Of a stretch of 64,000 nucleotides of DNA, positions 5,521 to 36,285 are shown in pieces. The notes beneath the pieces were generated by a model. That model made no database searches. It was not told the DNA's origin and worked only from the letters and a program-made list of their open reading frames with translations. Within the stretch, counting starts at the first letter, position 1; every line of letters starts with the position of its first letter. The translations under genes were made by a program, and so were the position numbers. This DNA comes from Mustelus asterias (lineage: Eukaryota), in assembly GCF_964213995.1 (NCBI RefSeq), contig NC_135822.1:71362001-71426000 (forward strand), written 5' to 3'.

Positions 5521-5557
5521 GCTCTGACGAAGGGTCATCCAGATTCGAAACGTTGGC
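5521..5557 (+). ncRNA. Minimal type I hammerhead ribozyme motif (family B)
   Basis: GCT-CTGACGA-A-GGGTC(atcca)GATTC-GAAACGT-T-GGC, within a Penelope-type repeat (about 5488-5584, resuming near 6108 after a CR1 insertion). Confidence 0.65.
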
Positions 5558-5584
5558 TCTATTCTCTCTCCACAGATACTGTCG

Positions 5585-6104
5585 TAGAGGTTTACAGCAT
5601 GGAAACAGGCCCCTCGGCCCAACTTGTCCATGCCGCCCTTTTTTTAAAACCACAAAGCTAGTTTGGCCGCATTTGGCCCATATCCCTCTATGCCCATCTT
5701 ACCCATGTCTAAATGCTTTTTAAAAGATAAAATTGTACCCGTCTCTACTATTACCTCTGGCAACTTGTTCCAGACACTCACCACCTTCTGTGTGAAAAAA
5801 TTGCCCCTCTGGTCCTTTTTGTATCTCTCCCCTCACACCTTAAACCTATGCCCTCTAGTTTTAGACTCCCCTACCTTTGGGAAAAGGTTTTGACTATCTA
5901 GCTGATCTATGCCCCTCATTATTTTATAGACCTCTATAAGATCGCCCCTCAGCCTCCTACGCTCCAGAGAAAAAAGTCCCAGTCTATCCAGCCTCTCCTT
6001 ATAACTCAAACCAACAAGTCCTGGTCGCATCCTCGTAAATCTTTTCTGCACTCTTTCTAGTTTAATAATATCCTTTCCGTAGTCGAGTGACCAGAACTGT
6101 ACAC
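5585..6104 (-). mobile_element. CR1 LINE 3' fragment
   Basis: QKRFTRM..LSYKERLDRLGLFSLERRRLRGDLIEVYKI. Confidence 0.9.
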
Positions 6105-6487
6105 AAACCTGCTGAAATTTTCCAGCATTTTCTGTTTTTGGCTCTGCAATACATTCCCTGGCCTCTTATTCCATTATTGTTCGTGGGATCCTGCAAAGCA
6201 CAAAGTTGGCTGCTGCATTTCCTATATTACAACAGGCACCACATTTAAGCAAAATACCTGTTGCTTGCCCGTGAACTGTTTTGGGACATTGTGAAAGGTG
6301 TATTAGAAATGTGAGTTCTTTCTTCAGCGGAGCAAGCAAGGAGGCTTAAATGAAGCTGTAATCCTCCGAGCTACAAGTTATATATTTGGCATGTTATAAT
6401 ATAATTTAGAGTCCAAAGATGTGTGGGTTAGGTTGATTGGCCATGTTAAATTGCCCCTTAGTGTCAGGGAGATTAACAGGAGAAATA

Positions 6488-7490
6488 CAAAGAACAAAGA
6501 AAATTACAGCACAGGAACAGGCCTTTCAGCCCTCCAAGCCTCCAAGGGGTGGCATGGCGGCACAGTGGTTAACACTGCTGCCTCACAGTGCCAGGGACTG
6601 GGTTCGATTCCCGGCTTGGGTCACTGTCAGTGTGGAGTCTGCGCGTTCTCCCCGTGTCTGTGTGGGTTTCCTCCGGGTGCTCCGGTTTCCTCCCGCAGTC
6701 TGAAAGATGTGCAGTTTAGGTGAATTGGCCATGCTTAATTCTCCCTCAGTGTACCCGAACAGGTACCAGAGTATGGCGACTAGGGGATTTTCACAGTAAC
6801 TTCATTGCAGTGTTAATGTAAAACCTACTTTTGATTAATAAATAAACTTTACTTAAAAAAAAAGCCTGCACTGACTATGCTGCCCATCTGAACTAAAACC
6901 CCCCACCCTTCCAGGGACCATATCCCTCTATTCCCATCCTGTTCATGTATTTGTCAAGATGCCCTTTAAAACTCACTATCGTATCCGCTTCCACCACCTC
7001 CCCTGGCAGCGAGTTCCAGGCACCCACTACTCTGTGTAAAAAACGTGCCTCATACATCTCCTTTAAACCTTGCCCCTCGCACCTTAAACCTGTGCCCCCT
7101 CGTAATTGACTCTTCCACCCTGGGAAAAAGCTTCTGACTATCCACTCTGTCCATGCCCCTCATAATCTTGTAGACTTCTATCAGGTCGCCCCTCAACCTC
7201 CGTCGCTCCACTGAGAACAAACCAAGTTTCTCCAACCTCTCCTCATAGCTAATGCCAGGCAACATCCTGGTAAATCTTTTCTGTATCCTCTCCAAAGCCT
7301 GCACATTCTTCTGGTAGTGTGGCGACCAGAATTGAACACTATATTCCAAGTGCGGCCTAACTAAGGTTCTATAAAGCTGCAACATGACTTGCCAATTTTT
7401 AAACTCAATGCCCCGGCCGATGAAGGCAAGCATGCCGTATGCCTTCTTGACTACCTTCTCCACCTGCATTGCCACTTTCAGTGACCTGGG
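6488..7490 (-). mobile_element. CR1 LINE 3' fragment with a nested SINE at about 6550-6860
   Basis: ORF 7050..7475 contains LYRTLVRPHLEYSVQFWSP and RRRLRGDLIEVYK. Confidence 0.9.
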
Positions 7491-7648
7491 ATGGGGTTAT
7501 GGGGATAGGGCCTGGGTGGGATTGTGGTCGGTGCAGACTTGATGGGCTGAACGGCTACCTTCTGCACTGCAGGGATTCTATGATACTGTGAACGTTACAG
7601 TTAGCTGTCCGAACACAAGGTGAAGAATGGTGAGATCACAGCTCTTAC

Positions 7649-7799
7649 CTGTCAATGCGACCAGGTGGGGTAGACACAGACGGTTTGCCAGCACAATGAG
7701 TTCCATGGAATCCAGATCTGGGCTGGAACAGAACTGTCCTGTGTACAGGTATTCCAGCACCGCTTGCATGCAGCTCTTGTATGTGTTTGGAAAGTACAC
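7649..7799 (-). CDS. RHOBTB2: RHOBTB2 coding exon 6 ([21 protein letters not shown]...LPHLVALT)
   Basis: 151 nt, aaacag|GTG...ACAG|gtaaga, phase 0 to 1. Confidence 0.96.
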
Positions 7800-7964
7800 C
7801 TGTTTGAAAGGCATTATCAAAGGTATTATCTCTGCACCCCGTACGACAAGGATAACAGCAATTTCTCACCATGAACCGCTGATCACAAAAATCAAAAATC
7901 ATGACTCATTTCTTCCACCCTTGCATCTGGGAGAACTGGTTTGTAGTGTGGTAGATTGACAATC

Positions 7965-8400
7965 AGCTGTGCCTCAGTGAATCCACCCTGAGTCAAAAGG
8001 TTGTGCATTTAAGTTTCACATCAAAGACTGGAGTACCGAATTCAAGTTGATACTCGGGCAGAGACTGAAGTGCTTGCTTTGAAATAAGGCGTTAAACTGA
8101 GACCTTGGCCGACCTCGGCCTTATGTGGAAGATCCCACATCACTTCATCTCAAAGAGGAGGGGGAAGAGTTTTCTCTCTGGTGGCCTGGCCAATATTAAT
8201 CCCTGAATCAACAACGTGAAAATGAATGATCCTGGCCATTATCACATGGCAGTTTGCAACGGCTTGCTGGGTGAAAATTAGTTGCCGTGACTGCGACATG
8301 ACAACACTGACTACACTTGAGAAAGTGCCGCATTAGCAATGTACTGAGACTGTGAAAGATGCTTCAGAAAGACAAGTTGTGTCTTTCTTCAAAGTGTAGA
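7965..8400 (+). mobile_element. Old Deu-domain SINE (SacSINE1/AmnSINE1-like)
   Basis: ctgagtcaaaaggttg, gttaaactgagacc, cctggccaatattaatccctgaatcaac. Similar copies at about 5245-5470, 58430-58840 (-) and 44640-44820. Confidence 0.55.
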
Positions 8401-8530
8401 TCCGTGAATTAAAAATAAACCTCGGGGCTTAAATTATGTTGCACATAGCAGTGAAGAAACTGAAGCGTGAACAGACACCACAAACTGTGTAAAAAGAATG
8501 TGTTACTTTGACATACTGCGAGCATACAGA

Positions 8531-8586
8531 ACACACACACACAACACACGCACGCACACCACACACACACAACACACACACGCACA
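8531..8586. repeat. Imperfect (CA)n microsatellite
   Basis: Directly visible. Confidence 0.9.
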
Positions 8587-9409
8587 ATTATTTGTTACTC
8601 AGGAAATATATCAAACTATCGATTCCAACAAAGTCTGTGTGGAATTTGTAAGTTCTCTCCGTGTCTGCATGGGCTTCCTCTGGGTGGTTTCCTCCTCCCA
8701 CACTCCAAAGATGCGTGGGTTAGGTGGATTAGCTATGCTCAATTACCCCTTAGTGTCAAGGGGGGATCAGCAGAGTTAATACATGGGGCTACGGGGATAG
8801 GGCCTGGTTGGGATTGTGGTCAGTGCAGGCTCGATGGGCCGAAAGGCCTCCTTCTGCACTGTAGGGATTCTACGATTCCAAAGGTTACTGAGTGCACAGT
8901 CACCCTGTGAGGATCAAACAAACGGAAGCGGTAACTATAATACTCGTGACTCCTGGCACTTGTTTGCTGGGTTGGGTTGGGTAAAGTTAGACAGCGCTGA
9001 GGGAGATCATTTGGCCCATCCATACCTCTCCTGGCTCTTGGGTACAGCTGTCTACATTATCCCACTCACCTGCTTTCTGCCACAGATTGCAGGCTAACAA
9101 GCTCTGGGACCCATGCCACCACTGCTGTTCCTTTGCAATTAGTTGCAGAGGAGATAGGAGATCTGACGGAACACATCATGTTGGGTTGTTAATATTCCAG
9201 GATAGCCCTGGACTCATCAGGAATTCAAGATGAATCGCTGGGACACCTCCTGCCAGCAACACGATGAGAAAAAAATTCCAAAACACTTCTGTCCCATCAA
9301 TGCCAAAATGATGGGAGGTGGGAGAAAGGCAGGTTTGTCAATGCTGATCAAAAACCATTCCAATAAAGAGTCTAATCACTTTCTAAATGCTGAAGAAAGG
9401 CTTGTCTGA

Positions 9410-9696
9410 GTTTAAAGTTTTTTAAGTTTATTCATTTGTCACAATTACTCTTACATTAACACTACAATGAAGTTACTGTGAAAATCCCCCAGTCGCCACA
9501 CTCCGGAGCCTGTTCGGGTACACTGAGGGAGAATTTAACACGGCCAATGCACCTAACCAGCCCGTCTTTCGGACTATGGGAAGAAACCCACGTAGACACG
9601 GGGGGAATGTGCAAACTCCATACAGGCAGTTACCTAAACTGGGAATCGAACCCGGGTCCCTGGAGCTGTGAAGCAGCAGTGCTAACCACGATGCCA
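9410..9696 (-). mobile_element. HE1-like SINE, tail type B
   Basis: Consensus match. Confidence 0.82.
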
Positions 9697-10274
9697 TGAG
9701 TTTACTATGTCCACTGGCCAGTGGCAGGAGGATGCTGGGGGGGGGGGGGGGGGCGGCATTTGGAGACAGCAGGTCAGGAGATAAAACCTCTGGGAATGTA
9801 TCCAAGCAGAGTTCACAACCAACTCTTAACTTGCCCCCAGCTGTGTAATTTCAGGGTATTTTGACGAACTGCTCCGTGTCATGGCTCACCAACAATAGGC
9901 AGAGTTAGAATATGAAATCAAAACAAACTGGGTGAATTTCAGAAAAATTGGAATGCACCGATTTGTCGCTGAAATGTACATTGATGTTGCAATGGTGTTG
10001 GAATTTAGTATCAGCGTGTTCGGCGTAGCAAGGGTTAATGTGGGGCTGGAGAACAGTACCACCCATATTGTGATGTCGAGGGTCAGATGGTGGTAGACTT
10101 TGTGCAGAGAGGAGTCAGCCCAAAGACAGCAGCGAGACAGGGCTGTGCCGTGGAGATAGGTATATAGTTGCGTGTGGGATATAAACAGTTTATATTCAAT
10201 CACACAAGCCTCCAGACATCTGAGAAAGACACCAAGCAACCTCACAATAGACCTGTGATTCAAAGCTCAGGCCA

Positions 10275-10578
10275 CATGGCACAGTGGCACAGTGGTTAGC
10301 ACTGCTGCCCCACAACACCAGGGACCCGGGTTCAATTCCCGGCTTGGGACATGTCTGTGGAGTCCGCACGTTCTCACCGTGTCTGCGTGGGTTTCCTCCG
10401 GGTGCTCTGGCTTCCTTCCACAGTCTGAAAGACGTGCTGGTTAGGTGCATTGGCCATGCTAAATTCTCCCTCAGTGTACCCGAAGAGGCGCTGGAGTGTG
10501 CCGACGAGGGGGTTTTCACAGTAACTTCATTGCAGTGTTAATGTAAGCCTACTTGTGACACTAATAAATAAACTTAAA
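10275..10578 (+). mobile_element. HE1-like SINE, tail type B
   Basis: Consensus match. Confidence 0.87.
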
Positions 10579-11042
10579 ACAATTGTACTTCTTTCTCGCA
10601 AAATCCCCAACACTGCGACATGTATATCCAGCAACATGAACAGGATAGAGTGTGCATCGTGTATATGGCAGCTGCACACTGCAACTGTGTGTACTATCAA
10701 TGTGTTTCCACAGGGACAGCTGACAGTACAAGGGTAAAACACAGACAAGTGCACATCAGTGAATTCGCATCGCAGACTTCCTAATAGTCGTTCCTCTGTG
10801 ACGATCCATGTAACCACACAGTATGTGTGTGTCTGTGTTTATGCAACACAGGAGTTGACACTGGCATACCGCACTAACCAAACAGAAACTGGGAAATAGA
10901 AAGGGGTGGCTAACACATTGAACATCCTGGGACCCTCACCATGGGAAGGGTCTGGCAGAGGATGGAAAAGGAGAGCGCCTGGAAGCAGCCATCAGCTCTT
11001 TAAATGGCTGTTCCACAGAATCCAAATCTTTTCTTGCCATCA

Positions 11043-11350
11043 GGGCAGCACGGTGGCACATTGGCACTGCTACAACACAGAGCCAGGGACCCAGGTTCAA
11101 TTCCGGCCTCGGGTTACTGTCTTTGTGGAGTCTGCACGTTTTCCCCGTGTCTGCGTGGGTTTCCTCTGGCTGCTCTGGTTTCTTCCCACGCTCCAAAGAT
11201 GTCCAGGTTAGGTGGATTGGGCAGGCTAAATTGCCCCTTAGTTTCAGGGAGATTGGCAGGGTAAATACGGGGATAGGGCCTGGGTGGCATTGTTGTCGGT
11301 GCAGGTTCGATGGGCTGAATGGCCTCCTTCTGCACTGTAGAGATTCTACG
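11043..11350 (+). mobile_element. HE1-like SINE, tail type A
   Basis: Consensus match. Confidence 0.83.
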
Positions 11351-12326
11351 TCTATTTTACTTATTTATGAGTCACAAGTTGACTTACATTAACACTGCAA
11401 TGAAGTTACTGTGAAAATCCCCGACTATGAGTTTCTGTGAGAAAAGCAAAACTCCAAAATACTTGAAAAAAAAACCCTGCAGTTTTGAATAAACAAAATC
11501 ACAGCCCTTTCCCTTTCTGGGTGGCTGAGGGAGTGGTTTAATGTACTAACTCTCAGATGGAGATGTTGACTTGTATCACACACAATGTAATCCCTTTATA
11601 TTTAAACCGCAATAAAAGAGAATCACGTTGCTTCATTGTCAGTTCTATAAATAGCACAGTAACCTTCAGACAGACAGCACAGCTCTTCATAAAACATGGA
11701 AGGTCAGGAACTGAACAGCTCCATCTCCGAATGTCTTTCTCAATAGCTGCCCAAAGAGAACGGAAAACATTCCAGATCTTGCAGGCAGCATCAGCGCTGA
11801 CATCATCTGCACATTGAGCCTCTGGTGATTGAGCTGCCTCCTGTCTGATTAATAAAACAGAGCGAGATTCATCTTGCCATTTTCACTCTATCTTGGGTTC
11901 TGAAACACGCACTGAGGGCAAAGTACAGACGCAGCGAGCCCAGTGTGAAATGGAGAGAGCAAACACTGAACAGCAAGGAACCTTCAGCTCATGCTGAAAA
12001 GCACCCCCCCCCCCCCACCCCCCCCGATGTCCTCAGCCAAAGTCTCTGCAATCTGATCCCAATTTCATTTTCTAAATACGTCCCAGGCCAACATTGTCCC
12101 TCAACCAACATGAGGGAAGCAGAGTATTGTTACTGTCAGTGGGATCTTGCTGTGCACAAGCTGGCTACGTTACAACAGTGATGAGATTTGTTTCCTCACC
12201 TCTGTGGTGCTTGGAGAGATCCTGATGCAGTCCGATAATGTTTTTCACAAGTCTCTCATGCAAATCGTGACATTTGATGCATTTACACAACTCTAATTTG
12301 CAACATTTCACTGATTATGCAACATT

Positions 12327-12825
12327 TTGCTTTGGAGAGGGTACAGAAAAGATTTACCAGGATGTTGCCTGGTCTGGAGCGCATTAGCCATGAGGAGAGG
12401 TTGGAGACACTTGGTTTGTTCTCACTGGAACGGCGGAGGTTGAGGGGCGACCTGATAGAAGTCTACAAGATTATGGGAGGCATGGACAGAGTGGATAGTC
12501 AGAAGCTTTTTCCCAGGGTGGAAGAGTCAATTACTGGGGGGGGACACAGGTTTAAGGTGCGAGGGGCACGGTTTAAAGGAGATGTCCGAGGCAGATTTTT
12601 TACACAGAGGGTGGTGGGTGCCTGCAACTCGTAGAGGGTGAAGGTAGTGGAAGCGGATACGGTAGTGACTTTTAAGGGGCGTCTTGACAAATACATGAAT
12701 AGGATGAGAATAGAGGGATATGGTTCCCGGAAGGGTAGGGGGTTTTAGTTAAGGCAGGCAGCATGGTCGATGCAGGCTTGGAGAGCCGAAGGGCCTGTTC
12801 CTGTGCTGTAGTTTTCTTTGTTCTA
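12327..12825 (+). mobile_element. CR1 LINE 3' fragment
   Basis: ORF 12317..12634 is a CR1 ORF2 C-terminus, followed by the 3' UTR. Confidence 0.9.
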
Positions 12826-13253
12826 TAATTATAATGTTATCGGTCAATGTTATAGGTTATGGGTATATCGATAGATAATGCAATATTCAATCTATCCTTC
12901 CATTCTCTTTGGGTTTTTCCCCCCCCATTTTACATGGGCTCTTGCTGGTAAATTGCTCTTTGCTAGGTCCCTTTCCTGATGTTAACACTCCTTTTTTTCC
13001 CAGGTTGGGGTCCAGCACTGATACAAGCTGGCTTGCCTGTACCAAGTGGCTAGGCTCCGTGATAGTCCATACATGGACTCCCACCCAAGGCATATCCATT
13101 TGTTGGTCCTCCGACCCCAGAACGAGTTTGAGGACTTTGCTCTTAAATCTAGGTTTGCTCCAAGCTTTTTAAAATTTTCATTCCTGGTATTCTCCATTCT
13201 TCACTGTAGGGGTGACTGATACTCATGTTGGGTTTCCACTGCAGCCGAATGTG

Positions 13254-14010
13254 TGTGAGACAATACTGTGCCTTTAAGAAATGTATTATATCATGTGTCT
13301 TGGGAGGGGTATGTTTAAAATTCAGCTCTGTTTACGGTGTTGATTTGTCTGCCCCAGGCAACCCACATGCTGAGAATGCAGGAGAATAATTGATCCTGGA
13401 CAATGGAGTGCTTGTTTTAATCTGAGCTAATGCATTTTTGTGTATTTTAGGGTTTTCCCCTGGGGTTTCAGAGTAGGGTTTAATTCGGATGATTGATAAG
13501 AGACAGTCATGTGAGCTAAGCTGACAGAGACAAGCAGGCAGTTTCTGTTGAGTCTGCAAGGAGTAGGAGGCCTCCTTCTTTATCTCCGTCTGGAGCCTGC
13601 AATTTGGGACCTGCCAGGAGAAGTAGGTCTCTCTCTCCAGAGGTGTTCTGGAGGCTTGAGGACTGATAGGCTACGTAAGCGTGTGTTGTTTGCTAACTGA
13701 TTCTGAAGTGGAATTTAAGTCTATGAGGAAGATTGCTTAAATTGGAACTAATAGAGATAGGTTAGCAGTTAAGAATTGTATCTTGTCATGCTTAAGTATT
13801 TCAATTGGTCAAAATTAAACTAATTCATTCGTTATAATTAAATTGTACTGTTAAAAATACAATTTGTTTTGATAAAAGCTTCCGAGTGTGTCAATAGAAC
13901 CACAACGAGAATGAAACACCTTATCCTCACACTAATGCCAAAATAAAAAGTTTTTGGGGTCTAGTCTAACTTCAGAATATACCTTGGGGTTTCTGATCTG
14001 GTCTCTAACA
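13254..14010 (+). mobile_element. Solo LTR (Gypsy-like)
   Basis: TGT...AACA termini with 4-bp TSD TGTG (13250-13253 and 14011-14014). Homologous to 16215-16980. Confidence 0.85.
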
Positions 14011-14649
14011 TGTGCAAGCTGCTTTCAGAACACACTGGTGAAGAATGGGAACCTGATTCTCTCCACCCGAGGCGAATGGAGATGATTTGAAGAAGAATGG
14101 GAATATTGCTGATTTTCCTTCATCCTCCTAATGTTGGTCACTGCACTGAGGCCAAGTCACACTTGGCAACTGTTGTACCAGTTGCGGGGGGCAGGAAAAC
14201 CTACAGATTTGGTTTGAGATATTATGGAAAGTCACCATACATGGTAATCAGCGCATACTCCCATCCCCCACCCCCACTGCGCCAACTGCTCGTGGCACCA
14301 AAATACTGCAGCAATGCCAACGGAGTTAAAAAATGAAAGCTCACTAAGCATTACACCTGTCCACAGCTCTGACGAATCCAAACTGTCCAGAAATTAAGAG
14401 GCACGGTGGGAAGGTCAAAGTGCAGGAGAGCGCGGAGCTCTTCAAGTGTCTCGAGAACCGCCGAGCTTTGCTTTCAAGACTTGGGTATGATTTCTTGGGG
14501 AAAAAGGAATTGCCAGATTTATTAAAGCAATGTTATTCAGACGAACCATTCATAGCGAGAGAGTAAACCGGAGGGTGGAGGAAGACCATGATTTTGGCCT
14601 CAATTACAGATCAGAAGAAACAAGAGAGGTTAAACTTTGGAGGTACATT

Positions 14650-14988
14650 GAATCCATAGAATCCCTACCGTGCAGAAGGAGGCCTTTTGGCCCATCGAAT
14701 CTGCACCGACCACAATCCCACCCAGGCCCTACCCCCATATCCCTACATATTTTACCCACTAATCCCTCTAACCTACGCATCTCAGGACACGAAGGGGCAA
14801 TTTTAGAATGGCCAATCAACCTAACCCGCACATCTTGGGACTGTGGGAGGAAACCGGAGCACCCGGAGGAAACCCACGCAGACACGGGGAGAACAAAAAA
14901 AAACTGCACCCAGACAGTGACTCGAAGCTGGAATTGAACGCGGGTCCCTGGAGCTGTGAGGCAGCAGCGCTAACCCACTGTGCCACCT
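14650..14988 (-). mobile_element. HE1-like SINE, tail type A
   Basis: Consensus match. Confidence 0.87.
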
Positions 14989-15229
14989 GATGGCTGTCGG
15001 AGCGTTCAATAAGACAGGATTGAGGTCGTGTGGAGACCGAGTGAAGGAACAGACAATGTTGTTTTCTTCCTCCAAAAATAAAAGTGTTACGCAAGGACAC
15101 TGGGGCACAGAGTTCTCAACCAGAAGGACAATGAAGTCGGTTATCAATTATTTGCCAAACTATTGTTCGTGCCCTTGGACAGAATGTGAGTCACGGCACA
15201 GAAAAGCACACTTTGTCACTGTTGTTACA

Positions 15230-15401
15230 ATGTGGAGATGCCGGCGTTGGACTGGGGTAAACACAGTAAGAGTTTTAACAACACCAGGTTAAAGTCCAAC
15301 AGGTTTATTTGGTAGCAATGGGAGCAATAGAATTTGGTAGCTAATGGCATTTGCTACCAAATAAACCTGTTAGACTTCAACCTGGTGTTGTTAAAACTCT
15401 T
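15230..15401 (-). mobile_element. Penelope-like terminal-repeat fragment with inverted copy, same family
   Basis: Inverted arms about 15262-15318 and 15351-15406. Flanking duplication ACTGTTGTTACA (15218-15229 and 15402-15413). Confidence 0.7.
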
Positions 15402-16214
15402 ACTGTTGTTACACGCATTCTGTTTGAGGTTAGAGATGGAGGGAGGGCTGGCTTCAATATGACGTGAGGCATGTTCCTTCAATCTGAACACAAGTGGTGA
15501 AGCAGTGTAATTCCTGCTCAGTGCACAGGGCCACACTGAGCGCTGCTGTTTTAGAACGCACCCTCACCATTTCACAATGTCAGCATCCTTGAGTTTTACT
15601 TCCCCAATGCTGCGGCTGCACTGCAGGTGATAACGCAGCACTGGAGGTGAAAGAGAGTTCGACGTTTTCTACAATATCTACCTCAGACTGTGACGGGTGA
15701 AAGGTGTCACTTGGTGTGGATTTGTGGACAAACCTCTGGCTGCACATCTGTGACAGACCCCATCTTCCCTTGTCGTTTTACCTTGTTGCATTACCTTGCT
15801 GCATTCAGCAGTAACAGTGGGCACCAACTCGAGATATAATCCGAGAATCCCAACAGTGCTCAAGGAGGCCATTCAGTCCATCGAGTCCGCACTGACGCTC
15901 CGAAAGAGCATTTTACCTAGACCCACCCCACACCCCATGCTATCCCTGTAACCCTGCACATTTAGCAGGGCCAATCCACCTAACCTACACATCTTTAGAG
16001 ACTAAGGGGCAATTTAGCATGGCCAATCAATCTGCACATCTTTGGAGTTTGGGAGGAAACCTACGCAGACACTGGGAGAACGTGCAAACTCCATACAAGT
16101 GGATAGGAGCCGTCCTCCACTCCTTTATGTCAGGACTCATTTTTGTGGCCATTGTGTGTGTTTTTTGGAAAGCTTTCACCCGAAAACTATCTGCAGGTCA
16201 GCTGTTTAACCCAT

Positions 16215-16980: not shown

Positions 16981-17391
16981 CCATCCGAAAAAGACTCAAT
17001 AATGATGGTGTTCTGAGGGGTGTAGATCAGTGGAGAGAAAGAGGGAGGTAAAATTGAATTCTAATTTTGAATGTGGGTGGTAGTCATTACCCTCTGCTCC
17101 AACTCGAATCTCAGGAGAAATTCAGATAAGCATCTTGCAGGGAATATGTGAATGTGACAAACTTTGAAACAGAGTTTGATCATGTTTAGTTTGGAAGCCC
17201 ACAGCTAAGAAACATCTTGCTTCTGTGAACCCCTGGAGGTGGATTTTAACATTGTGTAACTACGCTAAGTGGGGCAGAGAGTAGGATTTTATCAGCACCG
17301 AACTTCCCCAAAGTCAAGGTTGACCCCTTTTGTCCTTTGCCCCTGTAACTGACCCAGAATACGTGACCGGCCCCATCAGTCACTGCCTTAC

Positions 17392-24926: not shown

Positions 24927-25918
24927 CGGAGAAAGTCCCTTTGGCAAGGCATTCTTTTACACGGTTTGCCCTCCTCACGTGGAATGCTTTGGTAATCTCT
25001 TGGTTCATGAAGGCCTCATTGTTCAAGATATTGGCCACCATCATTCGCAAGTCAAAAACCTCCAGTAGCTCTGCAATGTGGGCGATCTGCATCAGCTCCT
25101 TCTCATTCTCATCCAGCTGGCCGGTGTACAGGTAACGCATGACCGCATTGAACGCATCCGCGTGCACCGAGTAGTCCATCCTGACCACCGTCATCAGTCG
25201 GTTGTCCAACGTGATGGGATCTTCTGCCATCTCTTCCTGGATACTGATGAAAGCTCTGCTCCATGACGACAGGATTTTCCCTCTTCTAAACCAAGCCTTT
25301 GCTCTCCCACTGTTATCGTGGGCATTAAGTTTCAAGATACCGTCACTGGTGGACGCTCTAAGATTGGACAGCGGTTGGGTGCTCAGAACCTCATCTGTGC
25401 TTTCGCTGACATCAAAACTGGCAGCCCTCATTAAATACTCCCTGCCCTGCTTGTCACTGTGACTCACCGCTCTTCCGCCACCCGACTCGGCTTCTTCACT
25501 GAGGTCCATCAGAAACAAGTCGTAAAATTTCGAAGAGGAGGTAGACAAATAGATCTTGTGAGCGTAGATTTTAATCTTGTCCTGAAGCACGAGGATGACG
25601 TCCGCACAAAGGGGATTCTCCAACAAGTGGGCAGGATGCTCTTCATTGGTTTTGGGGGGCTCCGGGACAATGATGATGGGGGGAGGCGGTTTGGGGGGCA
25701 GGAACGGGGCCTGGAGTAAAGGCTTTTGAACGTTCCTCAGGTGCGACTTCCAGAACTGGAGGTGCCGTCTGGATATCAAGGCGGCCCTGATGGCATTATC
25801 GAAGACATCCTTGATGCCAAATTGGGCCACCACGCTGGTCTCGTAATAGGGGATACCCAGTTCTTTGGCGACCTCGCGACCCTTTTCAGGAGGCAAAATC
25901 TCATTGTGTTTTATTGGC
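24927..25918 (-). CDS. RHOBTB2: RHOBTB2 coding exon 4: end of GTPase domain, proline-rich linker, split BTB1 ([21 protein letters not shown]...[10 protein letters not shown])
   Basis: 992 nt open frame inside ORF 24859..26058, cacag|G...TCCG|gtaagc, phase 2 to 1. [14 protein letters not shown] and EEMAEDP favour RHOBTB2 over RHOBTB1. Confidence 0.97.
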
Positions 25919-26084
25919 CTGTGAACACACAAACAAGACCGCGTCAGCTGGATAAGGTCACTTACAAAACTGTCAAATATCACGCATTTACACCTTCCCG
26001 CTTTCTGTAACTGCTTTCTTGTCAAGATGCAATTTGGAAAGCTAGTTGGAAATGTCAAACCATGGTGCTTGGGGTATTTAGCTA

Positions 26085-26220
26085 AGGCAAATTACTGCGG
26101 ATGCTGGAATCTGAAACCAAAAAAGAGAAAATGCTGGAAAATCTCAGCAGGTCTGGCAGCATCTGTAAGGGGAGAAAAGAGTTGATGTTTCGAGTCCAGA
26201 TGACCCTTGGTCAAAGCTTG
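26085..26220 (-). mobile_element. Penelope-type family B repeat, degenerate hammerhead core
   Basis: Minus strand agctttgaccaagggtcatctggactcgaaacatcaac...cagatgctgccagacctgctgag. Confidence 0.6.
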
Positions 26221-27521
26221 GGGTATTTTTGCACACCAACGATTGTTTGGATCTAAATTTTGCTGAACGGGAGGAATATACACAATTTTAGAAAATAGAC
26301 ATGAATATTGTAAACAAATATACTGCCTCAACCAATCTGCAATTGATGATATTCTGATGGAGGGGAGTCGGTACATTGGCACAACCCATCTTGAAATCTG
26401 ACATCTCAAACAACACTGAAAGGGACAAGTTTTAAAAAATATCCAGAGCTCAGATTGAGTAATTGAGAGTAATTTGAAATGTGAACCACATAGACTTACA
26501 GCTCCAAGTAATCAGAATGTATCACTCCCAAATAGGTCCCTAAGCCACCCGGTCCCTCCAACTTGCTCGGCCAGTTCTTCATTGGGTTGGTTGTTGGGAG
26601 TGTTAGTCAGCTGGAAAAGTATTGAATGGAAGGGTGGGGAAAGAATAATTCAGATGGAATCTGGAGACATGATCATAATGTGAGATTGGTTAAGGTCAGT
26701 GAGAAGGTAATGGGGTCAGGGTTGACTGATGGTGCGAACAGGTGGTATCTAATTCATTCCAATTCTCTTCCTGCACCTAGCAGTGCACTGAGGCAGACTT
26801 CCGTTTCCAGAGCTCGGAATTCCCAGAACAGGTCGCCTGTCCTCCAAAGATGTGCGGTTAGGTGGACTGGCCATGCTAAATTGACTCGCGTGTCAGAGGG
26901 ATTAGCAGGGTAAATAGGATTTTCACAGTAACTTCATTACAGTGTTAATGTAAGACTACTTGTAACTAATAAATAAATAAACTTTATCTGTGGGGTGATG
27001 GGGATAGGGCCTGGGTGGGATTGTGGTCGGTGCAGACTCGATGGGCCCAAAGGCTTTCTTTTACACTGCAGGGATTCTATGATTCTAAATAAACATCAAA
27101 CCAGTGCTTTTAAGTTACGTTCACTGACAGCAAATTGGTTGATTTAACTGTGAGTCAATACTAGACTATTCTGTAGGATAGTGGGACTGGGCTGGGGGAA
27201 GCTGTCATACAGTAGAGCGTGTCTAATGAAGAGGTTTGCTGGACATTTGGTATTTATATTCTCATAATCCAAATCAATACAATCCAATCCAAATCAGTAA
27301 ATGAGGAAGCCTCTCAAAGCTTACCATTGATTAATTGCTCATTCGTCCCTTCATGGATTTCTCTTCATTGACTCACAACGGGTTCCTGTTCCACTGACAT
27401 CAATCAGCCCGTGGTACCTCACCCAAGTATACCTCCTTCATTTGTGATCCACTACAGCAAGTTCAGCCAGTGGCAGAAGGGTTGCGGGAGGTTGGCCATG
27501 TAAAACCTCATCAACATAAGG

Positions 27522-27950
27522 GCGGCATTGTGACATGGTGGTGAGCACTGCTGCCCCACAGCGCAGGGACCTGGGTTGAATTCTGACCTTGGGTGACTGT
27601 CTGTGTGGAGTTTGCACGTTCTCCCAGTGTCTGCGAGGATTTCCTCCGCATGTTCCGGTTTCCTCCCACAGTCCAAAAGGCGTGCTGGTTAGGTGAATTG
27701 ACCCGAACAGGCGCTGGAGTGTGGCGACGAGGGGAATTTCACAGTAACTTCATTGCAGTGTTGATCTAAATTTTACTTGTGACCAATAAATAAACTTACT
27801 TAAAGATGTACGGGTTTGGTGGATTGACCATGCTTAGTCTCACGGGGACTATCTAGAGTAAACGCATGGGGTCATAGGATAGGGCCTAGGTGGGATTGTG
27901 GTCAGTACTGGGCTGAATGGTCTCCTTCTACACTGTCGAGTTTCTATGAA
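27522..27950 (+). mobile_element. HE1-like SINE (type B tail) followed by a type A 3' half
   Basis: Consensus match. Confidence 0.8.
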
Positions 27951-28131
27951 TTCTGCCTTCCCCCAACACGGGTGAGGTTTCCTTCCCATACTTAACACAG
28001 CTGAGGACCATTGGGGTGAACATTCGGACTGAGATGAGCTGACTCACCGGTGAGCAAGACTTTCTGGTCCCATCGCTCATCCATTCGCCCGTCAGTTCAA
28101 CCTTTGGGGAAAGTTCTCACTTTTACCCTTA

Positions 28132-28458
<327 letters not shown>

Positions 28459-28707
28459 TCATCTCACCTTTGTGTAGTCTGTTTAAATTGGCACGTATGA
28501 CACTTCAGTAACTGGATTGTGTCACACAGAACATACAGCACAGAAACAGGACATTCATCCCACTGGTTCCTTGCTGGTGTTTCTGCTCCACACAAGTCTC
28601 CTCCCACCCTATCAGTACCTCCTTCTACTCCTTCCTCCCTCCCTCATGTGTTCATCTCGACCCCTCTCCTTAAGTTTATCCATGATTTGCGGACTTTCTT
28701 TATTGAG

Positions 28708-28905
28708 TCTCACAACACCAGGTTAAAGTCCAACAGGTTTATTTGGAGTCACGAGCTTTCGGAGCGCCGCTCTGAGTGACTCACCTGATGAAGGAGCAGC
28801 GCTCTGAAAGCTCGTGACACCAAATAAACCTGTTGGATTTTAACCTGGTGTTGTGAGACTTCTTACTGTGCCCCATCCCAGTCCAATGCCGGCATCTCCA
28901 CATCA
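28708..28905 (+). mobile_element. Penelope-like element terminal-repeat fragment with inverted partial copy
   Basis: Inverted arms spanning 28706-28860, a hammerhead core, and a 13-bp flanking duplication TTTCTT(T/G)ATTGAG (28695-28707 and 28906-28918). Confidence 0.75.
28781..28817 (+). ncRNA. Minimal type I hammerhead ribozyme motif (family A)
   Basis: TCAC-CTGATGA-A-GGAGC(agc)GCTCT-GAAAGCT-C-GTGA. Confidence 0.7.
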
Positions 28906-29484
28906 TTTCTTGATTGAGGCCTGTAAAAACTAAGTACTACAGCATCCAGCTATGCCTATAATGGAGGTGGACATCGACTGCACACCTATTTAAAAGCTTG
29001 TGGCCACTGCACAGCCTGTTTTTGAGGAAGTTACACTCATCAATGGTACCCTTTTCAATAAAAACACCTGAAAATGAGTTGCAATGAGTAAACCTGTTGC
29101 GGAGGAACCTGCCCTTTCCTCAGCCCTGCTGGACATTCTGCCTCAGCTGATTAGATTGGCCAGGTTTTCAGAATGACGTAGCAGTGTCCTTTCCAGCGGT
29201 AAAGGTTAGTGCCACAGCTGAATGATCCACAAGAGATGCTGCGTTATTCCGAGAATAGACTCCACCAGCTGGGGGCTGGCATTACCCATCTTCACAACGA
29301 ATCAGGCTCTTTCATTTTGGTTTTGTTCAGGAAATACTGAATTGGTTAGAAAGCATTTCAGATCTGTGCAGTCTTCTTCTCAGTGGTTCTCTCTGAAGAT
29401 AAGCTTTGCAGGATGTTTTGAGACATAGCTTTACAAGGATATCAGGTTTTACAACGACCTCAGATTTGTCATGCCATTGGTTGT

Positions 29485-29618
29485 GTGATGACTTCAATGA
29501 GGCCCATGAGGTTGGCCTCTTGGAGTACGAGTTCCCTGATTGGACAGACAATTCTGACCTCAATCAGGGAGCTCATACTCCAAGAGGCCAACCTCATGGG
29601 CCTCGTTCAAGTCATCAC
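29485..29618. repeat. Long inverted repeat (58-bp arms, 18-nt spacer)
   Basis: 29485-29542 versus the reverse complement of 29561-29618: 54/58 identical. Confidence 0.92.
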
Positions 29619-29629
29619 TGGTTGTTTCA

Positions 29630-30227
<598 letters not shown>

Positions 30228-31886
30228 TCAATAATTTCCAGTGCAAAGGAAGAGAAGGTAAGTCTCATCAAGTGTGTTGCAGTATGGAATCATACAATGC
30301 AGAAGAGGCCTTTCGACCCATCGAGTCTGCACCAACAGTAGTTAAGGCTGAAGGAGCACAAGGTGCTTCAGTTGATTTGGCATTCAACATGTCCGAGCAA
30401 TGTTGCACAGCGCTCATATTAAATTACCTTGCCCAAACAGTGAGCACATTGGAGAAAAGAAACTGCCACTAAAGGTGCATAACCATCAGACCACACCTTG
30501 AAGGGGTCTGGTCACCCAGACACAGACATTCAAGCAGTGAGAGGAGTGTGGGGAAGAGCTAGAAGGCTAATTTCTCATGTCAAAGGTCTGAGGTGTCAGG
30601 TAAGGATGGGAGCGGACCTTAATGACATGTGGGAGTTAGTTAAGGAAATGGAAAAGGTGCACCTCGAACAAGTTTGATTGGAAGAGTACAACAGTGAACA
30701 GTACAGCACAGGAAACAGGCCCTTCGGCCCTCCAAGTGGGACATAACATCAAACTAGTCTGAAGGACGCGCTGGTTAGGTTCATTGGCCATGCTAAATTC
30801 TCCCTCACTGTATCCGAACAGGCGCCGGAGTGTGGCAACTAGGGGATTGTCACAGTAACTTAATTGCAGTGTTAATGTCAGTCTACTTGGGACACTAATA
30901 AATAAAATACAAATGGTTGAAAAAGGTACATTAAGAACAGATGCCAGGAGATTTTACATGCTTGCGTCTTAATAATCTCTGGAGAACTTGGGACGTCAAT
31001 AGTGTCTACCTCCCTGAACAAGTGAAACACTGTGCCTTCAGAGAGACAGCCTTGGCGTTGTAGCAAGGATGCCAATGATGTTGCCTTTAACTTGAGAGTT
31101 GGAGAGAATGCTGAATATCCATAAATTAATATCAGATTGCAAACCTTCATCTTCTAAAACCTCCTGGCTATCACCCAGGATTTATGCTAGGTGGCCAATG
31201 TGTCATTTTTAAATAGCCGAAACCAGATGTTCGTGAGAAAAACAGCTTGCATTTAAACTGCACCTCTAATGACCTCAGGACATCAGACAATGCTTTACAG
31301 CCAATAATGTACTTCTGAAGTGTAGCAGTTGGCATCCTTCCATCCAGAAAGGATGACAGACACAGCAAACAATCCATTGAGGTGGGGTGTAGTGAATGCC
31401 ATCCCTGATACAGGAAAAGCAGCAGTCAATCCGAGTACAACAAGCTCCCACGAACAGCGGTGCCATAATGATCGGACATCTGCCATGTTGGCTGGTATTG
31501 TGTTTCCTTTGATTTTTTCAGCACAAACTCACCAATTACTCAAGTACACTGGTAAACCGTATTGTCAATTCTTTATTCACTGATTATTGTACTAAGTACA
31601 CATTTCCAGAGTGCTCTCACCAGTAGGTCTCGATTGGTCAACTGATAGATTGTCACACAACAACTGTCTGATGTGCACAGGTAATGGACATACCCCACTG
31701 GAGGGCATCCTACAATCGCTAAGAGATAAACATTGGCCAGGGCACTGGGAAAACTCCCCTCTTCTGCAAGATAGGACCACAGGGCTTTTAACATCCACCA
31801 GAGAGGACAGATGGGTCCTCAGCATCCCAACTGAAAGGTGGCCTGTCTGACAGTCCAGCAGCCCCTCAGCACTTGTCTAGTGGCCT

Positions 31887-32395
31887 GGCGGCATGGTGAC
31901 ACAGTGGCTAGCACTGCTGCCTCACAGCGAAAGGGACCCAGGTTCAATTCTGGCCTCCGGTCACTGTCTGTGTGGAGTTTCCACATTCTTCCCGTGTCTG
32001 CGTGGGTTTCCTCCGGTTTCCTCCCACAATCCAAAGATGTGCGGGTGAGGTTGACTGGCCATGCTAAATTAACCCTAGTGACAGGAGGATTGGCAGGGGG
32101 GATATGTGAGGTCACGGGAGTGGGGCCTGGTGGGACTGTGGTCGGTGTGGACTTGATGGGCTGAACGGCCTCCTTCCGCACTGCAGGGATTCTATGATCA
32201 ATATTGATACTGTATTCCGTCCAAACCACCTAACCTGCACATCGTTACTGTGGGAGGAAACCAGAGCACCCGATGGAAACCCACGCAGACACGGGGAGAA
32301 CGTGCAGAATCCACACAGTCACCCGAGGCCAGAATTGAACCCGGGTCCTTGGCGCTGTGAGGCAGCAGTGCTAGCCACTGTGTCACCGTGCCGCC
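31887..32395. mobile_element. Inverted pair of HE1-like SINEs (31887-32198 +, 32220-32395 -) nested in an older Deu-type SINE
   Basis: Two heads pointing toward each other. The flanks at 31480-31870 and 32396-32430 resemble the SacSINE1/AmnSINE1-like repeat. Confidence 0.82.
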
Positions 32396-33879
32396 CAGTC
32401 GGACATGAACCCATAACCTTCTGACTCAGGCTGCTGACTGACACAAACCTTCAGAAAATATCCCCTTCAGTTGCATTTTCCAGACCATTCGCCTTAATGT
32501 CAAAAACATAAATTCATATCCCAGTGATAAAACAATTTTTCACGCTGAATGATTTTCAGTGTTGCACAGGTTTATTGCAGTTGTAAATAAAGCCTGAACA
32601 CAAATCTAGCCATGTGACTGGGTAATGAGTTGAAGTGAATTATTTTACCACTTACAAGATCAAATTGAGCTGCAGGAGCTTTGAAATTGCGGTACTGGAC
32701 TTGCTGCCAAGGGGTCAAGAGTTCAAATCACACCACGGCTAAACTTAATCTATCACATCTGATGCAAGTTCACCAATCTGTAATGCCAATTCTCTCTCTC
32801 TCCACACAAAGGTTGTCTGATCTGCTGTGTATTTCCAACACACGCACTTGATATTTCCCATTTCAAGCACCTGTAGTTTTCTTTTGCTTCACACTCACTG
32901 GTACGCTAGCATCTTAGAAATAACCCCTCAACAACAACTTGCATTCACACAGCAACATTTATGGGATTAGCTGGTAAAGGAAGCAGATGTGGTATGAGGA
33001 GAAACTTTTCCACACAGCGAGTGGTTAGGGTTTGGAATGCTCTGTCTGAGAGTGTGGTGGAGGCAGCTTCAATCCAAGCTTTCAAAAGGGAATCAGGCTG
33101 TGATCTGAAAAGGAAGAATGTGTAGGGTCAGGGGGAGAAGTGTGTGTGTGTCTCATGTCTGTCACGGAACAAGAACCAGCCAATCCCACCTACTCTGGAC
33201 ATGATCAACTCTGGCTGCCTGAGGACAACTGGGAGCAGCCTTGCCCACATTCCAAGAAGCAATGAAATAAAATTGCAGGAATGCTCAAGATGCAAGCATA
33301 AATCCCACTTAGTATTTTATTTTGGATCTTAATATCATCCTAACTTACTGCAGTATTAATTCCCCGGACATTTCTTTTCCCTACATCTGATAAGCATTTG
33401 TAGATGATCATGCATGTCAATTGTATGGTACATGATGGTGGAGAGTTTTTTAAAATTTTATTATTAATTCGTGGGACATGGGCGTCGCTGGCTGGCCAGC
33501 ATTTATTGCCCATCCTTGGCTGCCCTTGTTCAAAGGGCAGTTGAGAGTCAACCACATTGTTGTGGCTCTGGAGTCACATGTAGGCCAGACCAGGTAAGGA
33601 CGGCAGATTTCCTTCCCTAAAGGATATTAGTGAACCAGATGGGTTTTTCTGACAATGGTCTCGGATGCTTACTTGAGCATGTATACAAACACGCTTACTG
33701 ACACAAGAGTTGACTGGAATCAGGAGATATTGACCTGTAATGTTTCACACTGTGAATACTCTATTCTAAGTAAAGACCAACTCTGGATTTTTCCTTCACC
33801 AACTGGCTATTTGGAATATAACAATGCATTAAATTTAGCATCTAACTCATCTATTCAATATCAGAAAGCACACAGACAT

Positions 33880-36115
33880 ATGAATTCGGAGCAGGAGCAG
33901 GCCATTCAGCCCCTCAACCCTGCTCCGCCATTCAATCAGATCTTGGCTAAATTGATTGTGGATTCAACTTCACTTTCCCTTCTAACCCCTTTGACTCTCT
34001 CATTAGTGCAGAATCGATCGAATTCGGCCTGAAAAATATTCACTGACCCTGCCTCCATCACTCTCTGGGGAAGAGAGTTCCACAGACTCACTGCCCATTG
34101 AGAGAGAAAAAAATCTCCTCATCTGCCTTAAATGGGAGACCTTTATTTTTAAGCTGTGTCCATAGTTCTGGCCTGTCCCACAAGGGGAAACATCCTCTCA
34201 GCATCCACCTTTTCAAGTCCTGTCAGGATCTTGAATGTTTCAATAAGATCACCCCCCACGCTTCTGAACTCCAGTGGATACAGACCCAATCTGTCCAATG
34301 AATGATATAGAAACAAAGGAACGAGAAGCAGGAGGAGGCCATTCGGCCCTTTGAGCCTACCCCACCATTCATTTTGATCATGCCTGATCATCGAATTCAA
34401 TATCCGGATCCTCCCTTCCCCTCCATATCCCTTGATCCCGATAGTCCCTAGAGCTATATTTAATTTCTTCTTGAAATCACACAACCCTTTGGCCTCAACT
34501 ACTTTCTGTGGGAGTGAATTTCACACATTTACCAACCTCTGGGTGAAGAAATTTCTCCTCACCTCAGTCCTAAAAGGTTTACCCCTTATCCTCAAACTAT
34601 GACCCCCTAGTTCTGGACTCCCCCACCATTGGGAACATTCTTTCTGAATCTACCCTGTCTAACCCTGTCAGAATTTTATAAGTTTCTATGAGATTCCCTC
34701 TCACTCTTCTAAACTCCAGTGAATATTATCCTAACCGACTTAGTCTCTCCTCATATGACAGACCTGCCATCCCAGGGATCAGCCTGGTAAACCTTCGCTG
34801 CACTCCCTCTATAGCAAGGACATCCTTCCTCAGATAAGGAGACCAAAATTACACACAATACTCCAGGTATGGCGTCACCAACGCCCTATACAGTTGCAGC
34901 AAAACATCACTATCCCTATACTCAAATCCTCTCACTATGAAGGCCAACATACCATTTGCCTTCTTTACTGCCTGCTGTACCTGCACGCTTACTTTCAGTG
35001 ACTGATGCACAAGGACTCCAAGGTCCTGTTGAGTATCCACCTCTCTCAATTTACACCCATTCAAGTAATAATCTGTCTTCCTATTATTGCTACCAAAGTG
35101 GATAACCTCACATTTAACCATATTATCCTACACCTGCCATGCGGATGCCCTAACACTCAGCCTGTCCAAATCATGCTGAAGCATCTCTGCATCCTCCTCA
35201 CCACTCATCCTCCCACTTAACTTTGTATCATCTTCAAATTTGGAGATAAGACATTCAGTTCCCTCTTCCAAATCATTAATATATAATGGGAACAGTTGGG
35301 GTTCTAGCACAGATCCCTACAGAACCCAACTAGTCACTGACTGCCAATCAGAAAAAGACCCATTTATGCCAACTCTCTGCTTCCTATCTGCTAACCAGCT
35401 TTCTATCCATCTCAAGACATTACCTGCCATCCCACGTGCTTTACACAGTAGTCTGTTGTGTGAGACCTTGTTGAAAGCTTTCTGAAAGTCTAAATAAACA
35501 TCCATTGGTTCTCCTCGGTCAACTCTGCTCGTTACATCCTCAAAAAAGTCCAATAGAATCGTCAAGCGTGATTTCCCTTCTGCAAATTCACGCTGACTTA
35601 GTCTGATTATACCACTACCGTCCAAATGCTGAGTTATGAAATCCTTGATAATAGACTCCAGCAACTTCCCCAGTTAGGCTCACTGGTCTGTAGTTCCCTG
35701 TTTTCTCTCTACCTCCCTTTTTGAATAGCGGGCTTACGTTAATTACCTTCCAATCTGTAGGAACTATCCCAAAGAATTTTGGAAAATAACCACCAATGGA
35801 TCTACTATTTCCAGGGCCACTTCCTTTAGTACTCTGGGATGAAGATTATCAGGACCTGAGGATTTATCCACCTTCAATCCCATCAATTTCCCCCAAACCA
35901 TTTCTCTACTAATGCTGATTTCCTTCAGCTCCTCACTAAAACATGTTTCTCTCAGCACTCCTGGTACATTGCTTCAGTCCTCACAAAGGAAGACATGAAT
36001 AGAGTACAAATTTAATTCCTCGGCCATTTCTTTATTCCCCGTTATGAATTCTTCTGTTTCTGACTGTAAGGGTTCGACATTAGTTTTTGTCAATCTCTTT
36101 CTCTTTCCATGTCTA
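33880..36115 (-). mobile_element. CR1 LINEs: an older tail (33880-34297) plus a decayed RT-encoding copy of about 1.8 kb (34307-36115)
   Basis: KSSGPDNLHPRVLKE, VYLDFQKAFNKV, LYINDL..ISKFEDDTKL, KCEVIHFG. Confidence 0.92.
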
Positions 36116-36246
36116 TATGGGACAGAAGGAGGCCAATCAGCCCATTGTGCCTGTCAGACACAGCAGAACATGTTGACTATTGCACCACGAGCAGAAAATG
36201 CTGGAAAATCTCAGCAGGTCAGGCAGCATCTGTGGAGAGAGAATAG

Positions 36247-36285
36247 AGCCAACGTTTCGAGTCAGCATGACCCTTCGTCAGAGCT
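36247..36285 (-). ncRNA. Minimal type I hammerhead ribozyme motif (family B), sense to the RHOBTB2 pre-mRNA
   Basis: Minus strand AGCT-CTGACGA-A-GGGTC(atgct)GACTC-GAAACGT-T-GGCT. Confidence 0.72.

What the first reader, a model, noticed from the sequence alone, without database searches (positions are those of the whole stretch)
5521..36285. Two families of minimal hammerhead ribozymes scattered through the RHOBTB2 introns
Seen: family A (CTGATGA-A-GGAGC..GCTCY-GAAAGCT-H) at 18936 and 28781, mutated at 22083. Family B (CTGACGA-A-GGGTC..GAYTC-GAAACGT-T) at 5521 and 36247 (-), decayed at about 21724, 26185 (-), 45610 and 51590. Each intact copy has stem I pairing across the core and a palindromic 4-nt stem III (AGCT or ACGT). 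Known: Penelope-like elements carry such minimal type I hammerheads, which are thought to cleave as dimers. Inference: these short, TSD-flanked, ORF-less units are non-autonomous ribozyme-bearing retroelements mobilised by a Penelope RT. They may not be described in this lineage.
Basis: partly seen in the sequence, partly recalled or inferred. Interest (0 to 1): 0.72.

Follow-up and report, generated by a model that had tools for sequence, protein, structure and literature searches.

The report
Penelope transposon ends with hammerhead footprint
These small, predicted self-cutting RNA motifs are the dead end pieces of two very abundant Penelope-type jumping genes in a shark, a known arrangement, but over a thousand copies of one branch begin exactly at the predicted cut site, which likely records the ribozyme cutting in living cells.

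Summary
The motifs are real: a strict minimal-hammerhead descriptor finds exactly the four intact copies, and none in 200 simulated windows. They are not a separate ORF-less family. Each is the 3' pseudo-LTR end of an autonomous Penelope-like element (PLE): family A has intact 892-aa RT + GIY-YIG ORFs, family B a 732-aa open frame, 33% identical, both Neptune/Nematis-type. A 34-mer of A occurs 157,190 times; the RHOBTB2-like introns are not enriched. Covariation (stem I; U3-A8 for C3-G8) shows selection in source elements, while single copies decay neutrally. This is the known PLE minimal hammerhead (PMC4209133). Two footprints add interest. Short copies start just 5' of the core, about 30 nt below a TATA box (22 of 26 B copies). 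In subfamily A1, 1,148 copies begin exactly at the predicted cut, against 125 and 95 at two control positions. That excess is confined to inverted pairs, and neighbouring positions were not counted. This scan noted the same footprint before in this genome; I measured it before looking.

The parts
5487..5520 (-). family B inverted tail arm of the 5521 insertion
5521..5583 (+). family B pLTR end with intact minimal hammerhead (C3 5524, predicted cut after 5554; one extra G-U in stem II); interrupted by another repeat, resumes at about 6104-6141; 13-bp TSD with 1 mismatch at 5468-5480 / 6142-6154
   Evidence: (TSD read by eye)
18835..19033 (+). family A (A3) 5'-truncated PLE end with TATA-like box and intact hammerhead (C3 18940, predicted cut after 18972); ends at the short 3' site; weak 9-bp TSD
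21715..21818 (+). family B short copy, core A6>G and stem III ATGT (predicted inactive)
22073..22174 (+). family A (A2) short copy, A14>C; perfect 14-bp TSD 22059-22072 / 22175-22188
26080..26215 (-). family B short copy with tail, U3-A8 subfamily, decayed (A8>C, ACAT); perfect 13-bp TSD 26067-26079 / 26216-26228
28708..28905 (.). family A (A4) inverted pair: minus arm 28706-28767 cut inside stem II, plus arm with intact hammerhead (C3 28785, predicted cut after 28813) and tail; 13-bp TSD with 1 mismatch
36188..36287 (-). family B short copy with intact hammerhead (C3 36281, predicted cut after 36251); the only intact copy on the RHOBTB2 pre-mRNA strand; starts 6 nt 5' of C3; no TSD found
45615..45737 (+). 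old decayed B-like pLTR end, upstream of the first coding exon
51606..51713 (+). old decayed B-like pLTR end lacking the 5' core
2274..37317 (-). host gene context: RHOBTB2-like coding exons at 37317-37123, 30167-30039, 28395-28207, 25962-24928, 17514-17389, 7805-7644, 2444-2274; residues after 646 of the 710-aa relative not found in the window

Best explanation
The two motif families are the 3' pseudo-LTR ends of two autonomous RT + GIY-YIG Penelope-like retrotransposons, left as short dead insertions, and each carries a minimal hammerhead that is predicted to cut the element's RNA, likely as a dimer or with help from the element's protein. Shown: the link to the ORFs, two fixed 3' ends about 35-40 nt apart, inverted pairs, 12-14 bp TSDs, covariation. 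Inferred: transcription starts about 30 nt below the pLTR TATA box, at the first bases of stem I. The RT starts inside the RNA 65-105 nt past the cut site, from one or both nicked target strands, and runs to the RNA's 5' end. That end is the start site for most short copies, and the ribozyme cut for a few per cent of subfamily A1 copies. The window copies have no likely function for RHOBTB2.
For: ORF link: (18 of 18 RT-selected B loci carry the B end). Canonical layout with inverted pLTR, partial tandem, tail and 12-bp TSD in L093, L099, L101, as described in PMC3846280 and PMC11167929. 3' ends bimodal in 34 of 34 random A ends. Covariation: stem I 2.1-1.1 C-G 129, U-A 49, mixed 8 of 194; B core 3-8 C-G 40, U-A 28, C-A 9, U-G 4 of 84; H17 is G in 1 of 278. 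Start hump: 16 of 98 A events at -37..-31 against 3.9 expected; genome-wide loss 19.7% over the 8 nt before C3 against 9.0% over the next 8; 22 of 26 B copies start within 8 nt of C3, TATA 34 nt upstream in 28 of 35 long copies. Cut-site spike: 1,148 against 125 and 95; 0 of 40 inspected hits are internal deletions; the partner arm stays at or downstream of the cut in 31 of 35 pairs against 0 of 9 in controls.
Against: No cleavage or start site was measured. Plain folding gives stem II but not the active core for most copies. The spike was counted for A1 only, and the window's A copies belong to other subfamilies. Positions -2, -1, +1, +2 were not counted. The flank filter favours the cut site for short partner arms (10 of 16 against 3 and 4 of 16). 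Solo copies show no excess (2 of 40, about 57, against 9 of 20, about 56). The unbiased sample has 7 events at -3..+3 against 3.9 expected (p=0.10). The parse behind the covariation counts allowed only one core mismatch, and subfamily structure inflates its p-values. PMC11167929 found no RNA-seq reads ending at the cut site of an anole Poseidon, and cleavage was not needed in vitro.
Confidence: 0.82

Rival explanations
1. The short units are a SINE-like non-autonomous family that is transcribed from its own internal promoter and amplified again by the PLE protein.
For: Most core-bearing B copies have nearly the same boundaries (22 of 26). Penelope has an internal promoter overlapping its 5' intron (PMC8557442, passages). 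Tandem retrozymes derive from PLE pLTRs (bioRxiv 10.64898/2026.07.22.740005).
Against: Short A arms span 17 stem-II variants, 19 of 24 matching long copies. 5' ends form a continuum into the ORF. Both B subfamilies seen as short copies have ORF-bearing long copies. Short copies lack the TATA box. No tandem array of the unit was seen in the window.
Confidence: 0.13
2. PLE ends as above, but the spike at the cut site has another cause: a cryptic 5' splice site (the A1 site begins with GT, 76 nt before a branch-point/AG acceptor), RT stalling at stem III followed by trimming, or end-joining and palindrome repair near the self-complementary AAGCTT.
For: The excess occurs only in inverted pairs. 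A 75-bp pLTR intron is known in Drosophila Penelope (PMC8557442, passages). One perfect palindrome centred at the site occurs in L264.
Against: 0 of 110 acceptor contexts show the spliced form. Subfamily A2 has no GT at the site, yet one A2 pair (L234) joins there (one case, 2-nt ambiguity). Flank classes that pass both filters still differ about ninefold (about 44 of the first 100 hits, against about 53 of 95; counted by eye). At the cut the selected arm is the longer one in 30 of 34 unequal pairs.
Confidence: 0.35
3. One or more intronic copies were co-opted to process or regulate the RHOBTB2 pre-mRNA.
For: The 36247 copy is intact and on the sense strand.
Against: Density is ordinary: 6 A ends in 64 kb against 34 in 400 kb; 4 B ends against 34 per Mb. 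Three of four intact copies are antisense. The only sense-strand partner for a dimer (26185) is decayed.
Confidence: 0.02

Closest known systems
Minimal hammerheads (min-HHR) in pLTRs of metazoan PLEs (Cervera and De la Pena 2014, PMC4209133; parts 1-2 of 4 read)
   Same: Type I core, extra nucleotide between 9 and 10.1, G10.1-C11.1, short stem I, palindromic 15.2-16.2, mostly solitary copies taken as truncated PLEs, pairs on opposite strands, and a U3-A8 core variant (there in Schistosoma).
   Different: No cartilaginous fish is named in the parts read. Copy numbers here are far higher (157,190 exact 34-mers, against about 4,000-9,000 motifs in coelacanth and Xenopus). Stem II is 5-6 bp. No mapping of copy 5' ends to the cut site is given in the parts read.
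EN+ PLEs of the Neptune/Nematis type (PMC8557442 and PMC3846280, passages)
   Same: Single RT + C-terminal GIY-YIG ORF, CX4CX2C linker, two Cys inside the GIY-YIG core plus two His, pLTRs, inverted and partial-tandem insertions, optional tail, TSD, TATA in the pLTR.
   Different: Neptune against Nematis was not resolved by a tree. Named relatives of family A are uncharacterised shark proteins (80-94%) and turtle proteins (43-44%). A and B are only 33% identical.
PAc, Poseidon of Anolis (Frangieh et al. 2024, PMC11167929; parts 1-2 of 4 read)
   Same: Two RT start sites giving the tail; both target strands cut and extended; hammerhead in the pLTR.
   Different: In PAc the hammerhead overlaps the ORF start and RT starts inside the ORF; in family A both lie upstream of the ATG. 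No reads ended at the PAc cut site, whereas genomic junctions pile up at it here.
Animal non-LTR retrozymes (bioRxiv 10.64898/2026.07.22.740005; parts 1-3 of 5 read)
   Same: Type I hammerheads related to PLE pLTRs; one chondrichthyan genome carries them.
   Different: Retrozymes are defined by tandem units, each with a hammerhead. The window copies are single or head-to-head, TSD-flanked and dispersed.

Membership tests
Minimal type I hammerhead of PLEs | Conserved core CUGANGA...GAA-A15.1/U16.1-H17 | tested here: met
   4 intact window copies; H17 not G in 277 of 278 parsed copies
Minimal type I hammerhead of PLEs | Stems I and II with compensatory change; extra nucleotide after A9 | tested here: met
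   C-G/U-A at 2.1-1.1, U3-A8 subfamily, A bulge in 193 of 195 (A) and 79 of 84 (B)
Minimal type I hammerhead of PLEs | Palindromic stem III without a loop | tested here: met
   AGCT in 175 of 195 A copies, ACGT in 42 of 84 B copies, many of the rest CpG-decayed (top rows)
Minimal type I hammerhead of PLEs | Location in the pLTR of a PLE | tested here: met
Minimal type I hammerhead of PLEs | Self-cleavage as dimer or protein-assisted | not testable with these tools
   only the indirect genomic footprint
EN+ Penelope-like element | Single ORF with RT and C-terminal GIY-YIG | tested here: met
   892 aa in L092 and L094, RVT_1 E=1.7e-9, GIY-YIG E=2e-4 in L094 (just under the cut-off); 732-aa frame without its N-terminus for B in L187
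EN+ Penelope-like element | pLTRs, inverted or partial-tandem layout, tail, TSD | tested here: met
EN+ Penelope-like element | Spliceosomal intron in the pLTR / 5' UTR | tested here: inconclusive
   acceptor-like sequence before the ATG in A; no spliced form in 110 contexts or among the joints shown
Neptune clade | CX2-5CxxC linker and CCHH motif | tested here: met
   read from translations; shared with Nematis per PMC8557442
Neptune clade | Placement in an RT tree with named references | not tested
   no named reference PLE sequences were returned by the tools
Non-LTR retrozyme | Tandem head-to-tail units each with a hammerhead | tested here: not met
   window copies are single or inverted pairs; arrays elsewhere in the genome were not searched
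Independent non-autonomous (SINE-like) family | Fixed boundaries and private variants absent from autonomous copies | tested here: inconclusive
   fixed 5' start in 22 of 26 B copies, but variants shared with long copies in 19 of 24 short A arms; no tree built

The most novel reading that the evidence does not exclude
The insertions form a fossil map of the element's RNA ends. Most short copies are cDNAs of the 5' leader, from a start site at the first base of stem I to an internal RT start. About 3-5% of subfamily A1 ends come from RNA already cut by the hammerhead, with both arms of an inverted pair copied from the same cut molecule. This would be genomic evidence that a metazoan PLE minimal hammerhead cleaves in vivo, removing the first ~35 nt of the transcript.
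Probability: 0.55. Interest if true: 0.72.

Novelty: new member of a known kind. Interest (0 to 1): 0.5.

Why it matters
The motifs themselves are a known signature of Penelope-like elements. Whether these weak ribozymes cut in cells is stated as unclear in PMC8557442, and PMC11167929 found no RNA ends at the site. A young family with over 10^5 copies makes the question testable by counting junctions, and gives intact ORFs and natural covariants (including a U3-A8 core) for cleavage assays. The start-site hump also explains why readers keep seeing 'short ORF-less ribozyme units'. For RHOBTB2 the copies are most likely inert.

Tried and rejected
Rfam scan: no hammerhead family hit; the miRNA hits are inverted repeats below gathering score. 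The ten other CTGANGA...GAAA matches, including 48410(-), fail the strict descriptor. Internal deletion as the cause of the cut-site count: rejected, 0 of 40. My first look at 135 unbiased A ends showed no clear pile-up at the cut; it appeared only in whole-genome counts. Raw within-subfamily conservation looked higher in the core (1.8% against 3.8%), but this vanished when only positions between the anchors were used. Thermodynamic folding of monomers and dimers was uninformative about the active fold. Sequencing runs: no RNA holder listed; contigs only, so no starts or ends, and no GT..AG joint among the rows shown; not used as evidence. Junction counts at positions next to the cut remain open. 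Luense et al. (dimer cleavage) is not held; I know it only from the review passage and reference list in PMC6765202. Searches for a prior description in sharks or of the footprint: (0 papers with Penelope + elasmobranch + ribozyme); Repbase/Dfam and most subscription papers could not be checked, and the bioRxiv supplements naming the chondrichthyan families were not seen.
Full report
1. Observation. The cited motifs are present. A strict minimal-hammerhead descriptor returns exactly four copies, with C3 at 5524(+), 18940(+), 28785(+) and 36281(-), and none in 200 simulated windows. The decayed copies are as described. The gene is RHOBTB2-like on the minus strand; seven copies are intronic, two lie upstream of the first coding exon, and only one intact copy (36247) is on the pre-mRNA strand. 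TSDs of 13-14 bp are clear for four insertions by script and for 5521 by eye, weak for 18936, and not found for 36247, 21724, 45610 and 51590. The genome is a shark's, judged by the closest named proteins.

2. What the motifs belong to. Family A: the 30 best genomic matches to 18936 share a 3' end and extend upstream to very different lengths, up to more than 1 kb, into RT and GIY-YIG coding sequence. An RT search gave 24,797 candidates, 150 scored. Of 14 long-frame loci fetched, several hold a complete ORF; L092 and L094 give 892 aa from the ATG with RVT_1 and, in L094, a weak GIY-YIG hit. L093, L099 and L101 show an inverted pLTR, a partial tandem, the ORF, a 3' pLTR and a 12-bp TSD. Family B: L050 has a GIY-YIG remnant upstream. 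In 30 loci picked by that protein alone, the B motif follows 299-429 nt downstream in 24 (one is the query locus), further away in 2, and is absent in 4. All 18 RT-selected B loci carry the B end, and L187 has a 732-aa open frame, 33% identical to A. Both proteins have a CX4CX2C linker and the CCHH residues, which PMC8557442 (passages) assigns to Neptune and Nematis. No tree was built.

3. Abundance. A 34-mer of the A end has 157,190 exact copies, control 0. In 400 kb of stretches taken at round coordinates there are 34 A and 18 B ends, against 6 and 8 hits in the window; with a stricter anchor B gives 34 per Mb against 4 in the window. The introns are not clearly enriched. 22 of the 34 A ends are in inverted pairs, and all 34 stop at one of two sites about 35-40 nt apart, the PLE tail signature (PMC3846280, passages; PMC11167929, parts 1-2).

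4. Selection on the fold. Among 133 A copies chosen by anchors outside the ribozyme (129 analysed; 4 A3 copies dropped as too few), private mismatches are equally common in core and other positions (27 of 1416 against 112 of 5101, p=0.6). Columns that vary between lineages avoid the core (0 of 33 against 37 of 145; the same 11 positions counted in three subfamilies). Stem I covaries (C-G 129, U-A 49, mixed 8 of 194), N7 and H17 vary freely but H17 is G once in 278, and a whole B subfamily has U3-A8 for C3-G8. That swap was reported in Schistosoma (PMC4209133). So source elements kept the hammerhead, and single insertions decay neutrally.

5. Where copies begin: the front edge. In 135 A ends from loci not chosen for the ribozyme (132 placed, 98 events), 16 events start 31-37 nt before the cut, within a few bases of C3, against 3.9 expected. 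Genome-wide for subfamily A1, counts fall from 43,295 to 34,770 over the 8 nt before C3 and to 31,634 over the next 8. For B, 22 of the 26 core-bearing copies among 52 ends start within 8 nt of C3, most often at 4; long copies have a TATA box 34 nt before C3 in 28 of 35; 26 of 46 long A copies have a TATA-like box at 35 nt, 17 have none by my pattern. A spacing of about 30 nt from TATA to start is textbook knowledge, recalled. I infer that these copies are cDNAs of the transcript's 5' leader, primed at an internal site, as the anole protein does in vitro (PMC11167929). 19 of 24 short A arms are within two mismatches of a long copy's ribozyme variant, which argues against a separate short family but does not exclude one for B.

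6. Where copies begin: the cut site. For A1, 1,148 copies have three non-matching bases directly before the first base of the predicted 3' product, against 125 and 95 at positions 3 and 6 nt upstream. I inspected the first 40 hits and the first 20 of the -3 control. None of the 40 is an internal deletion; 35 have an inverted partner with the anchor, 3 an inverted tail only, 2 none. The partner starts at or after the cut in 31 of 35, against 0 of 9 in the control (Fisher p=1e-6), as expected if both arms were copied from one RNA that ended there. With roughly 40,000 A1 ends (scaled), the site holds about 3-5% of them; the controls match the baseline of about 0.55 events per base per 98. Against this: the filter favours the cut site when the partner is short, though matched flank classes still differ about ninefold (counted by eye); solo copies show no excess (about 57 against 56); the unbiased sample gives only 7 events against 3.9 (p=0.10); adjacent positions and other subfamilies were not counted; and the A1 site begins with GT 76 nt before an acceptor-like AG, so a splice intermediate is a rival, although 0 of 110 contexts show the spliced form. 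I put in vivo cleavage at about 55-60%.

7. Mechanism. Shown: ORF link, end structure, covariation, junction counts. Inferred: transcription from the pLTR; nicking of both target strands 12-14 bp apart; RT priming at two internal sites; copying to the RNA's 5' end (start site or ribozyme cut) or earlier drop-off; joining of the two cDNAs into head-to-head pairs. Dimer or protein-assisted cleavage is taken from PMC4209133, PMC6765202 (passages) and PMC11167929 and is untested here.

8. Known and new. The motifs are the minimal hammerheads of PLE pLTRs (PMC4209133), which that paper already saw mostly as solitary, probably truncated copies. Five paper searches found no description of these shark families or of junctions at the cut site; Repbase, Dfam, most subscription papers and the bioRxiv supplements were out of reach. 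After my counts I looked up earlier notes: several agents reported the same footprint in this genome, one reported the front-edge hump and one only a mild preference in other genomes. These are not independent support. Verdict: new members of a known kind, ordinary as intronic insertions, with a testable footprint bearing on an open question.

Noticed in passing
window 29489-29615: Near-perfect hairpin with arms of about 40 bp, scored weakly as mir-1294 on both strands; origin not examined.
   Followed up: no
L099:2875-2950 and other A copies: The short 3' end of A insertions falls at a branch-point-like CTTAC just before an AG acceptor-like site and the ORF's ATG; a link between RT priming and splicing is possible but untested.
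   Followed up: partly
L187-L204; window 26080-26215: A whole family B subfamily carries U3-A8 with C17 and a U-A pair at the base of stem I; these loci include the longest B open frame found.
   Followed up: partly
L316, L299 (G000 C1): Inverted-pair junctions at the cut site contain 50-nt fillers; in L316 the filler is the start of the element's own ORF, suggesting a template jump within the same RNA.
   Followed up: no
window 48388-48410 (-): Another CTGATGA...GAAAGCT match with no stem II and no second copy in the window; probably chance.
   Followed up: yes
L091:1-2756, L094:711-2899: Full-length A elements sit next to minisatellites whose unit resembles or abuts the element's 3' end.
   Followed up: no
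window 3600-57000, many places: Dense SINE-like repeats (families D1-D9) and LINE-like 3' fragments (for example 7050-7496, 17994-18557, 41564-41977, 61782-62390); one such repeat interrupts the 5521 copy.
   Followed up: no
   Followed up: partly
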